Positions 13,001 through 16,000 of a DNA stretch of 64,000 nt are shown in pieces; position 1 is the stretch's first letter, and each line of letters begins with the position of its first letter. Origin of the DNA: Escherichia coli (GTDB taxonomy: Bacteria; Pseudomonadota; Gammaproteobacteria; Enterobacterales; Enterobacteriaceae); the NCBI RefSeq assembly GCF_044647545.1, contig NZ_CP172818.1, one strand, 5' to 3'. The position numbers were made by a program.

Positions 13001-16000
13001 CAGACGCAGATCCAGAATCGCCTGAGCTTGCTGTTCGGTCAGGTAGTACAGACCATCACGCACGCCGAACTCTGGCTCCAGCCATTCCGGGCGCGCAGCA
13101 TCGTCGCCCGCACGTTCCAGCATCGCAGCAACGTTGCCCAGCTGCCACGGATTTGCAACCAGCGCGGTTTTCGCTTCTGCAGGCGTCGGCGCATGACGGA
13201 TCAGTTCGATGATCGGGTCGATGTTCGCCAGCGCCACGGCTAATGCTTCAAGGATATGAGCACGATCGCGAGCTTTACGCAGTTCGAAAATAGTACGACG
13301 GGTCACTACTTCACGGCGGTGACGAACAAACGCCGCGATGATGTCTTTCAGGTTCATGATCTTCGGCTGACCATGGTGCAATGCCACCATGTTGATACCG
13401 AAAGAAACCTGCAACTGGGTCTGGGAGTAGAGGTTGTTGAGCACAACTTCACCGACCGCATCGCGTTTCACTTCAATCACGATGCGCATACCGTCTTTGT
13501 CAGACTCGTCACGCAGCGCGCTGATGCCTTCCACGCGTTTTTCTTTTACCAGTTCCGCAATCTTCTCGATCAGGCGCGCTTTGTTTACCTGATACGGAAT
13601 TTCGTGGACGATAATGGTTTCACGTCCGGTTTTGGCGTCAACTTCTACTTCGGCACGGGCGCGGATATATACCTTGCCGCGACCGGTACGGTAAGCTTCT
13701 TCAATACCGCGACGACCGTTAATGATTGCCGCCGTCGGGAAGTCCGGCCCCGGGATGTGTTCCATCAGCCCTTCAATGCTGATGTCTTCATCATCGATAT
13801 ACGCCAGACAACCGTTGATGACTTCCGTCAGGTTGTGCGGCGGGATGTTGGTTGCCATACCTACGGCGATACCGGAAGAACCGTTCACCAGCAGGTTAGG
13901 AATTTTGGTTGGCATGACGTCCGGAATTTTTTCCGTACCGTCATAGTTATCAACGAAATCGACCGTCTCTTTTTCGAGATCAGCCATCAGTTCATGGGCA
14001 ATTTTCGCCAGACGGATTTCCGTATAACGCATTGCCGCCGCAGAGTCGCCGTCGATGGAACCGAAGTTACCCTGACCGTCTACCAGCATGTAACGCAGCG
14101 AGAATGGCTGCGCCATACGGACGATCGTGTTATAAACCGCCAAGTCACCATGGGGATGGTATTTACCGATTACGTCACCAACGACACGGGCAGATTTTTT
14201 ATAGGCTTTGTTCCAGTCATTGCCTAGTACGTTCATGGCGTAAAGTACGCGACGGTGTACCGGCTTCAGGCCATCTCGGACATCTGGCAGCGCACGGCCA
14301 ACAATGACCGACATCGCATAATCCAGATAGGAGCTCTTCAGCTCTTCCTCAATGTTGACCGGTGTAATTTCTCTCGCAAGGTCGCTCATCTAACCGCTAT
14401 CCCTCTACTGTATCCCGGATTCAAAGGTCGCAAATTATAACACAGCCGCGCAGTTTGAGGTAAACCTATACGCTTTATTCACATCCAATGCCTGATATAC
14501 TCGTTTGTCTTGCCAATTACGGAGTAGAAGTGCCAATGAATGCCGAAAAATCGCCGGTAAACCATAACGTAGACCACGAAGAGATCGCTAAATTTGAAGC
14601 TGTCGCCTCCCGCTGGTGGGATCTTGAAGGTGAGTTCAAACCGCTGCACCGCATTAACCCGCTGCGTCTGGGCTATATTGCCGAGCGTGCTGGCGGTTTA
14701 TTTGGCAAAAAGGTGCTCGATGTCGGTTGTGGCGGCGGCATTCTGGCCGAGAGTATGGCGCGCGAAGGTGCGACGGTGACCGGTCTGGATATGGGCTTTG
14801 AGCCATTGCAGGTGGCAAAGCTGCACGCGCTGGAAAGCGGCATTCAGGTGGATTACGTGCAGGAAACCGTGGAAGAGCACGCGGCAAAACATGCCGGGCA
14901 GTATGATGTGGTGACCTGCATGGAGATGCTGGAGCACGTCCCCGATCCGCAGTCAGTGGTCAGAGCCTGTGCGCAACTGGTGAAACCGGGCGGCGATGTC
15001 TTTTTCTCGACGCTTAACCGCAACGGCAAGTCATGGCTGATGGCGGTGGTTGGCGCGGAATATATTTTGCGCATGGTGCCCAAAGGCACGCATGATGTGA
15101 AGAAGTTTATTAAACCGGCAGAGCTGCTGGGCTGGGTGGATCAGACCAGTCTTAAAGAGCGACATATAACCGGGTTACATTACAACCCGATCACTAATTC
15201 CTTTAAGCTCGGCCCCGGCGTGGATGTGAACTATATGCTGCACACGCAGAATAAGTGAGGTTGTTGTTTGGATTCATCCGGCAACCGCGCCAATGCCTGA
15301 TGCGACGCTTGCCGCGTCTTATCAGGCCTACAAATGCTCTCCGTAGGCCAGATAAGGCGTTTACGCCGCATCCGGCAATAGTGATGGTCAGACAGCGATT
15401 ACCATTTCACCGTCATCGACAAAAACCCTGCCGTCTGGGCAAAATCATCACTCCCTTTCTGCCACGCCACGCTGCCGCGCAGGGACACTCGCTGACTGAT
15501 ATTGCCCGTGACTCCCACTTTTATTTCACCCCGTTGCTTCACCCCATCGTCACTGATAGTGCTGCCATCTTCTTCAATTTCCGTCGCATGGGGATCGTGA
15601 TAATAATTCAGATCTAATGTTGGTATGACATGAACAGCGGTACGCCATTCGCTGTGTAAACCCAGCCGCGTCTGAATATCATCACCCTGCGATTGTGACA
15701 CGCGCGCATGGTTAGCGGCGGTAAAATCATCCTGCTGCACGCCCTGATAAATCACCTGCGCCTGCGGTTCAATCACCACACCATGCCCCGGTAACCACTG
15801 ATACCCGGCTTCCAGCGAGGCGATAATCCCCGACGAATGGTAACGATCCACGCCATCGTCTTGTTCAGAAACATCATTGTTAAACCACGCATATTGCAGC
15901 CAGCTATCCAGCCAGACCCCCTGCTTCTGATTACCGTGCTGATACCAGCTTGAGGTCAGCCCAACGGCATAACCGTGGTTCTGGTTATCGGCGCGAGTTC

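What the first reader, a model, noticed from the sequence alone, without database searches (positions are those of the whole stretch)
15262..15395. REP clusters at three intergenic sites
Palindromic REP-type units occur in clusters at 15,262-15,395 (ubiG/yfaL), 22,141-22,262 (nrdA/nrdB, inside an operon) and 23,668-23,716 (yfaE/inaA). The nrdA-nrdB cluster is the most interesting because it lies between two co-transcribed genes, where stem-loops can stabilise upstream mRNA and tune the subunit ratio. REP clusters are also preferred targets for some insertion sequences.
Basis: partly seen in the sequence, partly recalled or inferred. Interest (0 to 1): 0.25.

Follow-up and report, generated by a model that had tools for sequence, protein, structure and literature searches.

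The report
Ordinary E. coli REP/BIME palindromic repeats
The three sites hold well-known E. coli repetitive extragenic palindromes (REP/BIME elements), so the finding is correct but ordinary; the mildly interesting part is that the gap between the two ribonucleotide reductase genes nearly always holds some strong hairpin, though which one varies between strains and species.

Summary
The 64-kb window is E. coli, nearest to strain FDAARGOS_497. It holds six palindromic units (PUs), all at the three named sites:
- ubiG|yfaL: Z2 and Y units, tail to tail.
- nrdA|nrdB: Y, Z2, and a degenerate Y that lacks the CTAC tail.
- yfaE|inaA: one atypical PU, so this is a single unit, not a cluster.

The consensus tail CTTATCNGGCCTAC occurs five times exactly; 0.9 matches are expected by chance even with two mismatches allowed. 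All three spacers fold far better than shuffles (z -4.3 to -6.3). Sites 1 and 2 meet the definition of BIME-2. None looks like an intrinsic terminator.

The remark about insertion sequences is borne out: in strain AR_0077 an IS1397-family element sits in the loop of the site-3 PU.

The nrdA-nrdB array varies among 5,426 E. coli genomes: 3 PUs (the window), 5 PUs (K-12, O157), 4 PUs of other types, or no REP and a boxC-like hairpin instead (about 31%).

The array starts 9 nt after the nrdA stop codon. That is within the 15-nt range reported to stall ribosomes, and the literature names the nrdAB transcript as an example. No effect on the subunit ratio was tested here.

Verdict: already known, low interest.

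The parts
15294..15332 (+). Site 1, Z2-type PU (TGCCTGATGCGACGCTTGCCGCGTCTTATCAGGCCTACA). The stem runs 15295-15327 and the CTAC tail is at 15328-15331. It lies in the ubiG 3' UTR, 36 nt after the ubiG stop codon (15256-15258).
   Evidence: E 5e-9. The hairpin energy is -21.3 kcal/mol.
15332..15342 (.). Site 1, short tail-to-tail linker of 11 nt between CTAC and GTAG. This is the S-type position of BIME-2.
   Evidence: inverted repeat I1, 11 nt between the arms. BIME-2 definition from PMC3333891.
15343..15377 (-). Site 1, Y-type PU on the minus strand (TGCCGGATGCGGCGTAAACGCCTTATCTGGCCTAC). On the yfaL mRNA strand it starts 22 nt after the yfaL stop codon (15399-15401).
   Evidence: E 8e-12. 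The hairpin energy is -19.1 kcal/mol.
15272..15284 (.). Site 1, a 13-nt segment ATTCATCCGGCAA containing a PU-head fragment (CATCCGGCA). It is present in the window and many strains but absent in K-12.
   Evidence: spacer of 140 nt in the window against 127 nt in K-12.
22146..22177 (+). Site 2, Y-type PU. Its stem starts 9 nt after the nrdA stop codon (22135-22137). It carries a 3-nt loop deletion (GTG, at 22159) seen in none of 5,426 complete E. coli genomes.
   Evidence: The hairpin energy is -14.4 kcal/mol, against -19.1 for the undeleted allele.
22178..22187 (.). Site 2, short tail-to-tail linker GGCTCGGTTT (10 nt).
   Evidence: inverted repeat I1. The same linker is present in K-12, O157 and E. 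albertii.
22188..22224 (-). Site 2, Z2-type PU on the minus strand (TGCCTGATGCGACGCTGGCGCGTCTTATCAGGCCTAC).
   Evidence: E 1e-9. The hairpin energy is -21.9 kcal/mol.
22225..22255 (+). Site 2, degenerate Y-like PU (CAGGATGCGGCGTAAAATGCCTTATCCGGCA). The head is altered and the CTAC tail is absent. It abuts the Z2 head and ends 13 nt before the nrdB Shine-Dalgarno AGGA (22269-22272; ATG at 22280). It is conserved as the last unit in all REP-bearing E. coli alleles examined.
   Evidence: E 4e-5. The hairpin energy is -11.8 kcal/mol.
23676..23713 (+). Site 3, single atypical PU (CGCCAGATACGACGCTTATACGTCTTATCTGGCCTACA). It lies 12 nt after the yfaE stop codon (23662-23664) and, on the other strand, 9 nt after the inaA stop codon (23718-23720). 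The site has the same length in 5,420 of 5,425 genomes. It is the target of an IS1397-family insertion in strain AR_0077.
   Evidence: E 8e-9. The hairpin energy is -18.3 kcal/mol on the plus strand and -20.5 on the minus strand.

Best explanation
The three sites carry ordinary E. coli REP/BIME elements.

Anatomy (shown):
- Sites 1 and 2 are BIME-2 arrays: Y and Z2 palindromic units in alternating orientation with 10-11-nt tail-to-tail linkers.
- Site 3 is a solitary atypical unit.

DNA level (partly shown):
- These are non-autonomous repeats that sit in permissive extragenic gaps.
- They gain and lose whole units. K-12 has exactly one more 88-nt Y-Z2 unit between nrdA and nrdB than the window's nearest relative (shown).
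- They serve as insertion targets for IS1397 (shown at site 3).
- Mobilisation by the REP-associated tyrosine transposase TnpA_REP and cleavage of BIME-2 by DNA gyrase come from the literature and were not tested here.

RNA level (inferred):
- All three sites are transcribed as 3' UTR or intercistronic RNA and would fold into stable hairpins of -12 to -22 kcal/mol per unit, with no U-tract. They are therefore not intrinsic terminators.
- Their likely effects are the two documented for REPs. One is blocking 3'-to-5' exonucleases and so protecting upstream mRNA. The other applies where the stem begins within 15 nt of a stop codon, as for nrdA (9 nt), yfaE (12 nt) and inaA (9 nt), but not ubiG (36 nt) or yfaL (22 nt). 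There the hairpin stalls the terminating ribosome and lowers output of the upstream protein.
- Any effect on the NrdA:NrdB ratio is probably modest, because natural E. coli strains carry 0, 3, 4 or 5 units at this essential operon.
For: - Consensus and chance.
- Unit sequences against the Y/Z2 consensus, and orientation.
- BIME-2 definition, and published variation of copy number between strains: PMC3333891.
- Extragenic position and gene identities.
- Folding.
- No terminator pattern at the sites.
- REP-derived Rfam naRNA4 model hits all three sites in the 11-kb search; in the whole-window search it hits only sites 1 and 2 and nothing outside them. naRNA4 is a Y-l-Z2 unit: PMC4550694.
- Multi-copy in genomes: a median of 13 and 10 matching places per genome for the site-1 and site-2 queries.
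- Unit-number polymorphism.
- IS1397 in the site-3 PU loop. IS1397 specificity for PUs: PMC1525189.
- The 15-nt rule, with the nrdAB transcript named as a reported case: PMC12306157.
Against: - No function was measured here.
- The curated Term-seq 3'-end list for K-12 has no entry between 2,336,713 and 2,349,897. There is thus no dominant REP-protected 3' end after nrdA, ubiG, yfaL, yfaE or inaA in those conditions. This is weak negative evidence, because the list is filtered.
- About 31% of E. coli genomes have no REP at nrdA-nrdB, so REPs as such are dispensable there.
- The site-3 PU departs from the Y/Z consensus in head and loop and does not hit other genomic copies by megablast.
- The original paper on the 15-nt rule (Liang, Rudd and Deutscher 2015) could not be read.
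Confidence: 0.9

Rival explanations
1. The nrdA-nrdB array is a selected intercistronic regulator. Any strong hairpin directly after the nrdA stop codon would set the NrdA:NrdB ratio, through decay protection, partial termination or ribosome stalling. REPs would simply be the current occupants of a conserved 'hairpin slot'.
For: - In 107 species of Enterobacterales, Pasteurellaceae and Aeromonas (101 unique spacers), the nrdA-nrdB spacer is strongly structured. The median z is -4.0, and 90% fall below -2. For 60 control same-strand spacers from the same loci the median is -1.5 and 43% fall below -2 (Mann-Whitney p 7e-10).
- A perfect hairpin of at least 6 bp starts within 15 nt of the stop codon in 73 of 101 spacers, against 21 of 60 controls.
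- The hairpins belong to unrelated families: terminator-shaped GC hairpins, boxC-like elements, GCCGGGT-type REPs and Y/Z REPs.
- E. coli strains without REPs carry a boxC-like hairpin instead of an empty spacer.
Against: - The species are related, so the counts are not independent.
- The control set is small and built from crude ORF calls.
- Long spacers may simply be the places where mobile palindromes can land.
- The array varies from 0 to 5 PUs within E. coli, with very different total stability, which argues against tight tuning.
- There is no expression evidence.
Confidence: 0.3
2. The elements are purely selfish or neutral DNA with no consequence for the flanking genes. They persist only because the sites tolerate them.
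For: - Presence, number and type vary between strains at sites 1 and 2.
- A private 3-nt loop deletion that weakens one hairpin by 4.7 kcal/mol is tolerated.
- An IS insertion in the site-3 PU is tolerated.
- No Term-seq 3' ends are listed at the sites.
Against: - Site 3 has the same length in 5,420 of 5,425 genomes.
- Published experiments show that REPs affect mRNA decay and translation (cited).
- A hairpin is almost never absent from the nrdA-nrdB spacer in any species examined.
Confidence: 0.3
3. The hairpins are Rho-independent transcription terminators or attenuators of ubiG, yfaL, nrdA, yfaE and inaA.
For: - They are stable GC-rich stem-loops directly after stop codons.
- In other genera the same nrdA-nrdB position often holds a terminator-shaped hairpin with a T-run: 20 of 42 repeat-free spacers.
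Against: - No terminator-like site is called at any of the three sites, and none of the stems is followed by a T-run.
- Only 1 of 59 repeat-carrying spacers has TTTT at the 3' foot of the hairpin.
- nrdB is essential and has no room for its own promoter in a 142-nt spacer filled with repeats (inference).
Confidence: 0.03
4. The elements act mainly on DNA or the nucleoid. They would be gyrase cleavage sites or cruciform anchors bridged by HU and REP-derived naRNAs, and their position next to genes would be incidental.
For: - The architecture is BIME-2, the class reported as a gyrase target (reference list seen).
- The sub-threshold matches to naRNA4 reflect the same Y-Z2 unit that forms naRNA4 in REP325.
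Against: - The Rfam scores are below the gathering threshold (53.7, 43.7 and 27.2 bits against 59.5).
- The naRNA work concerns REP325, an array of six units.
- Nothing here tests DNA-level binding.
Confidence: 0.12

Closest known systems
BIME-2 (bacterial interspersed mosaic element, type 2) of E. coli
   Same: Y and Z2 units in alternating orientation, short tail-to-tail linker, tandem units whose number differs between strains, and the GTAG/CTAC foot.
   Different: Nothing essential. The window allele at nrdA-nrdB has one unit fewer than K-12 and a private 3-nt loop deletion. The last unit is degenerate.
REPs within 15 nt of a stop codon that stall ribosomes and trigger trans-translation (Liang, Rudd and Deutscher 2015, as summarised in PMC12306157)
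   Same: The stem starts 9 nt after the nrdA stop codon, 12 nt after yfaE and 9 nt after inaA. The nrdAB transcript is named as a reported case.
   Different: The primary paper was not readable here and no stalling was measured. ubiG (36 nt) and yfaL (22 nt) fall outside the rule.
Intercistronic REPs of malE-malF and hisJ-hisQ that protect upstream mRNA from 3' exonucleases (from my own knowledge of Newbury et al. 1987 and Stern et al. 1988; cited generically)
   Same: A REP array between two co-transcribed genes, with no U-tract.
   Different: In the transport operons the upstream product is needed in large excess. NrdA and NrdB form an alpha2-beta2 enzyme, so a large differential is not expected. 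No stabilised nrdA 3' end appears in the curated Term-seq list.
REP325 / naRNA4 (Rfam RF02564)
   Same: The same Y-linker-Z2 unit. The Rfam model aligns to all three sites.
   Different: The scores are below the gathering threshold. REP325 has six units and lies between yjdM and yjdN. No HU or nucleoid role is implied for these loci.
IS1397 target palindromic units
   Same: An IS1397-family element is inserted in the loop of the site-3 PU in strain AR_0077, with a 3-bp TTA duplication. This matches the published specificity.
   Different: The window itself carries no IS at any of the three sites.

Membership tests
E. coli REP / palindromic unit (Y, Z2) | Imperfect palindrome of 30-40 nt able to form a stem-loop | tested here: met
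   The arms are 13-14 nt and 86-92% complementary, with 4-6 nt between them. Single-unit hairpins fold at -11.8 to -21.9 kcal/mol.
E. coli REP / palindromic unit (Y, Z2) | Conserved GTAG (CTAC on the other strand) at the foot of the stem | tested here: met
   It is present in 5 of 6 units as an exact CTTATCNGGCCTAC. It is absent from the degenerate unit at 22225-22255.
E. coli REP / palindromic unit (Y, Z2) | Match to the Y or Z2 consensus, including the GATGCG/CTTATC mismatch in the stem | tested here: met
   Units were read against the consensus, where the consensus was written from memory. The head motif GCCKGATGCGRCG matches with 0-1 mismatch in 4 units. The site-3 unit matches the tail exactly but the head only with 2 mismatches.
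E. coli REP / palindromic unit (Y, Z2) | Extragenic position | tested here: met
   All units lie between annotated stop or start codons.
E. coli REP / palindromic unit (Y, Z2) | Many copies per genome | tested here: met
   Queries containing site 1 or site 2 hit a median of 13 and 10 places per E. coli genome. The site-3 query hits a median of 1 place, so site 3 is supported by consensus only.
E. coli REP / palindromic unit (Y, Z2) | Binding and cleavage by TnpA_REP (RAYT) | not testable with these tools
   This is a biochemical property (PMC3333891).
BIME-2 | Y and Z2 units in inverse orientation separated by a short (S) linker, often in tandem copies | tested here: met
   Site 1 is Z2(+), 11 nt, Y(-). 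Site 2 is Y(+), 10 nt, Z2(-), Y'(+). K-12 has one more 88-nt unit at site 2.
BIME-1 | Y and Z1 units separated by the long L linker that carries an IHF site | tested here: not met
   There is no Z1 unit and the linkers are 10-11 nt.
Intrinsic (Rho-independent) terminator | GC-rich hairpin followed by a T-run | tested here: not met
   No terminator-like call was made at any site, and the sequences after the stems are CTACA/CTACG, not T-runs.
naRNA4 (Rfam RF02564) | Score at or above the curated gathering threshold (59.5 bits) | tested here: not met
   The best scores are 53.7, 43.7 and 27.2 bits. The matches reflect shared REP ancestry.
Translation-modulating REP (15-nt rule) | REP stem begins no more than 15 nt after the stop codon of the upstream gene | tested here: met
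   nrdA 9 nt, yfaE 12 nt, inaA 9 nt. It is not met for ubiG (36 nt) or yfaL (22 nt). Coordinates; rule from PMC12306157. Only the spacing was tested, not stalling.
IS1397 target site | IS1397 found inserted in the loop of the unit | tested here: met
   Site 3 in strain AR_0077...GCTTA | IS1397 | TTACGCG.... This was not observed for sites 1 and 2.

The most novel reading that the evidence does not exclude
The gap between nrdA and nrdB may be a conserved 'hairpin slot'. Across Enterobacterales and Pasteurellaceae it almost always holds a strong stem-loop that begins a few nucleotides after the nrdA stop codon. The occupant has been replaced repeatedly by unrelated elements: a terminator-shaped hairpin, a boxC-like element, two REP families, and within E. 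coli arrays of 0 to 5 PUs. That pattern would imply selection for structure at this position, as a post-transcriptional control of ribonucleotide reductase subunit synthesis that does not depend on which repeat supplies the hairpin.
Probability: 0.25. Interest if true: 0.4.

Novelty: already known. Interest (0 to 1): 0.12.

Why it matters
As a discovery it matters little. REP/BIME elements are a 40-year-old, well catalogued feature of E. coli, and the nrdAB one is already cited in the literature.

Its practical value lies in the natural allelic series found here at an essential operon: 5 PUs, 3 PUs, 3 PUs with a weakened first hairpin, 4 PUs of other types, or a boxC-like hairpin. This series offers a ready-made test of whether intercistronic REPs tune subunit ratios or are merely tolerated.

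The cross-species pattern also suggests that the hairpin, rather than the repeat family, may be what is retained.

Tried and rejected
- Intrinsic terminators: rejected. There is no T-run and no call at the sites.
- sRNA gene (naRNA4): only sub-threshold Rfam hits, explained by shared REP sequence.
- Other REPs in the window: searched with motif, profile and Rfam. None was found outside the three sites.
- REP annotation in the K-12 RefSeq record: the table returned no repeat features, so no official REP numbers are cited.
- Liang et al. 2015 and Liang and Deutscher 2016: neither paper is held. Only the secondary summary in PMC12306157 could be used.
- Literature search for nrdA, nrdB and REP: nothing direct apart from PMC12306157.
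- Term-seq evidence for a REP-protected nrdA 3' end: none was found in the curated list.
- A very recent swap of REP for boxC-like hairpin in an otherwise identical background (suggested by SK1144 being 100% identical over site 3): rejected. SK1144 differs by 34 substitutions in nrdA and 32 in nrdB.
- Identity of the ST131-type hairpin with boxC: the consensus was not available in the papers read. The element is low-copy by BLAST. It is therefore called 'boxC-like' from memory only.
- My first terminator test on the cross-species spacers (and the stricter version) undercounted, because A/T pairs at the stem base absorb the T-run. It was replaced by the TTTT-at-3'-foot count.
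Full report
**What the window is.** The window is Escherichia coli. Positions 14,800-15,900 are 100% identical to strain FDAARGOS_497, NZ_CP033850.1, and nrdA through inaA show no substitutions against that record. Annotation of that record and of K-12 gives the following layout:
- gyrA (-)
- ubiG (+), stop codon at 15,256-15,258
- yfaL (-), stop codon at 15,399-15,401
- ypaB
- nrdA (+), 19,852-22,137
- nrdB (+), 22,280-23,410
- yfaE (+), 23,410-23,664
- inaA (-), 23,718-24,368

**The observation.** Reading the three spacers shows six palindromic units (PUs).
- Site 1 (ubiG|yfaL, convergent genes, 140-nt spacer):
  - a Z2-type unit on the + strand (15,294-15,332);
  - an 11-nt linker;
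  - a Y-type unit on the - strand (15,343-15,377), so the two are tail to tail;
  - a 13-nt PU-head fragment (15,272-15,284) that K-12 lacks.
- Site 2 (nrdA|nrdB, 142-nt spacer):
  - Y (+) at 22,146-22,177;
  - a 10-nt linker;
  - Z2 (-) at 22,188-22,224;
  - directly abutting it, a degenerate Y-like unit (+) at 22,225-22,255 with no CTAC tail.
- Site 3 (yfaE|inaA, 53-nt spacer): one atypical unit at 23,676-23,713.

Several tests show this is more than chance.
- The tail motif CTTATCNGGCCTAC occurs five times exactly, all in these sites. With up to two mismatches allowed, 0.90 matches are expected, and 0 of 100 shuffles reach the observed count.
- A PU profile finds exactly these six units with E < 1e-4 and nothing else in 64 kb. 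The profile is partly built from the window's own units, so this is a completeness check rather than independent proof.
- The only Rfam family that matches is naRNA4 (RF02564), which is itself a Y-linker-Z2 unit of REP325 (PMC4550694). In the 11-kb search it hits all three sites below its gathering score (53.7, 43.7 and 27.2 bits against 59.5). In the whole-window search it hits only sites 1 and 2 and nowhere else.
Every spacer on both strands folds better than all 200 dinucleotide shuffles, with z from -4.3 to -6.3. Single units fold at -11.8 to -21.9 kcal/mol.

**Classification.**
- Ton-Hoang et al. (PMC3333891) define E. coli REPs as 30-40-nt imperfect palindromes with a GTAG at the foot. 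There are three types: y, z1 and z2.
- They define BIME-2 as z2 plus y in inverse orientation with a short S linker. BIME-2 occurs in tandem copies whose number varies between strains.
- Sites 1 and 2 meet this definition.
- BIME-1 (z1, long L linker with an IHF site) is not met.
- None of the stems is followed by a T-run, and the terminator scan calls nothing at the sites. They are not intrinsic terminators.

**Variation between strains.**

Site 2. In a systematic sample of 59 chromosomes from 5,426 genomes, with representatives read, the spacer falls into these classes:

| Class | Spacer length | Examples | Share of sample |
|---|---|---|---|
| 3 PUs | about 145 nt | the window's class | about 19% |
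| 5 PUs | 226-241 nt | K-12 (233 nt), O157, BL21 (with an extra 8-nt duplication) | about 46% |
| 4 PUs of other types | 189 nt | JNEC-KY173 | about 5% |
| No REP; a CCGTCCCCTCTCCCC...GGGAGAGGGGACGG GTGAGGGG hairpin that I call boxC-like from memory | 88 nt | ST131, SK1144 | about 31% |

- The last class is consistent with 1,717 records below 80% query coverage. It is also consistent with 1,788 genomes holding that element.
- K-12 differs from the FDAARGOS_497 allele by exactly one 88-nt Y-Z2 unit.
- The window's own allele has, in addition, a 3-nt deletion (GTG at 22,159) in the loop of the first Y unit. None of the 5,426 genomes shares it. It weakens that hairpin from -19.1 to -14.4 kcal/mol.

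Site 1. About 90% of sampled genomes have the Z2+Y pair in a 127- or 140-nt spacer. About 10% have a 60-nt spacer with one different unit.

Site 3. The length is invariant in 5,420 of 5,425 genomes.

**The IS-target remark.** One exception at site 3 is strain AR_0077. There the match breaks in the middle of the PU loop, and an IS3-like IS1397-family element is annotated between yfaE and inaA. The junctions read GCGCCAGATACGACGCTTA | CTGAACTGCACCCC...GGGGTTCAGTTCA | TTACGCGTATTATCTGGCCTAC, which is an insertion in the loop with a TTA duplication. IS1397 is known to insert specifically into PUs (PMC1525189). It also shows independently that the atypical site-3 unit is recognised as a PU.

**How it most likely works.**
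- Shown here: the anatomy, the gain and loss of whole units, the use as an IS target, and the strong predicted structure without a U-tract.
- From the literature: mobilisation by TnpA_REP acting on the GTAG-tagged hairpin in single-stranded DNA. Also the binding of gyrase, Pol I and IHF, and a role as mRNA stabilisers. [quoted passage not shown]
- Measured here: the spacing between each stop codon and the first stem base. It is 9 nt for nrdA, 12 nt for yfaE and 9 nt for inaA, which are inside the range. It is 36 nt for ubiG and 22 nt for yfaL, which are outside it.
- Inferred: on the nrdAB-yfaE mRNA the array forms hairpins that a terminating ribosome at the nrdA stop codon would have to unwind, and that would also impede 3' exonucleases.
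- Against a large effect: the curated Term-seq list of Adams et al. (PMC7815308) has no 3' end between K-12 coordinates 2,336,713 and 2,349,897. That means none at any of the three sites, although REP-ending 3' ends appear elsewhere in the list. In addition, E. coli tolerates anything from no REP to five units at this essential operon.

**Beyond E. coli.**
- Data set. A scan of one genome per species with a degenerate nrdB N-terminus pattern returned 120 loci. In 107 of them the nrdA stop codon could be located, giving 101 unique spacers of 42-333 nt.
- Structure. 91% have z below -2, and the median is -4.0. For 60 control same-strand spacers from the same loci the median z is -1.5, and 43% are below -2 (Mann-Whitney p 7e-10).
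- Position. A perfect hairpin of at least 6 bp starts within 15 nt of the stop codon in 73 of 101 spacers, against 21 of 60 controls.
- Occupants. They are unrelated:
  - Y/Z REPs in Escherichia (E. albertii 240 nt with five units; E. whittamii; a single unit in Escherichia sp. E1V33) and in Yokenella;
  - GCCGGGT-type REPs in Citrobacter, Salmonella, Klebsiella, Leclercia and Kluyvera;
  - boxC-like elements in Pluralibacter, Pseudocitrobacter, some Enterobacter, Phytobacter and some Buttiauxella;
  - plain GC hairpins in Cedecea, other Buttiauxella, Atlantibacter, Kosakonia, Rodentibacter and Haemophilus.
- Terminator shape. 20 of 42 plain spacers have TTTT at the 3' foot of the hairpin, against 1 of 59 repeat-carrying spacers.
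- Caveats. This is exploratory. The species are related, the control is small and rests on crude ORF calls, and long spacers may simply be where mobile palindromes can settle.
- Reading. It supports, but does not establish, the idea that a hairpin directly after nrdA is what is retained and that REPs are one interchangeable way of providing it.

**Comparison with what is known, and novelty.** These are members of the REP/BIME-2 family, and every sequence-level defining feature that could be tested was met (see the membership table). The nrdA-nrdB array is already cited in the REP literature. The finding is correct and already known. The most novel reading not excluded is the conserved 'hairpin slot' with occupant turnover (probability about 0.25; interest about 0.4 if true).

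Noticed in passing
window 17009 (yfaL, 15399-19156, - strand): A 1-nt deletion relative to FDAARGOS_497 splits yfaL (AIDA-I family autotransporter adhesin YfaL/EhaC) into two ORFs, 15399-16940 and 16952-19156. It could be a real pseudogene or a sequencing error.
   Followed up: partly
window 22159: A 3-nt deletion (GTG) in the loop of the first PU after nrdA. It is absent from all 5,426 complete E. coli genomes searched and weakens the hairpin by 4.7 kcal/mol.
   Followed up: yes
window 22246-22281 (- strand): An 11-codon ORF ([11 protein letters not shown]) equivalent to the K-12 small protein YoaM (b4779). It overlaps the nrdB start codon and ends inside the degenerate PU. It has one substitution (S2N) against the sequence deduced for K-12.
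   Followed up: partly
window 24449-24555 and onward: The window follows FDAARGOS_497 up to about 24,555 and then departs from it. The MFS-transporter gene annotated next to inaA in FDAARGOS_497 and AR_0077 is truncated in the window. From about 24,849 the window matches the K-12 locus at the glpQ end.
   Followed up: partly
L006 439-526 (E. coli ST131) and about 31% of E. coli genomes: The nrdA-nrdB spacer holds no REP. Instead there is an 88-nt spacer with a CCCCTCTCCCC/GGGAGAGGGG hairpin followed by GTGAGGGG (boxC-like). The same motif family occupies this spacer in Pluralibacter, Pseudocitrobacter, Enterobacter and Phytobacter.
   Followed up: partly
L009 3786-5274 (E. coli AR_0077): An IS1397-family element is inserted in the loop of the yfaE|inaA PU with a TTA target duplication.
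   Followed up: yes
L093 (Rodentibacter trehalosifermentans), L045 (MAG Haemophilus): The nrdA-nrdB spacers are unusually long (285 and 333 nt), AT-rich and unstructured. They look as if they contain a small inserted ORF rather than a hairpin. For comparison, a homing-endonuclease gene (mobE) sits between nrdA and nrdB in phage T4 (title and abstract of PMC2790892).
   Followed up: no
window 19,157-19,851 (yfaL-nrdA divergent region): K-12 and FDAARGOS_497 annotate ypaB here on the minus strand. A CRISPRi study notes that ypaB contains the nrdA promoter (PMC6242692).
   Followed up: no
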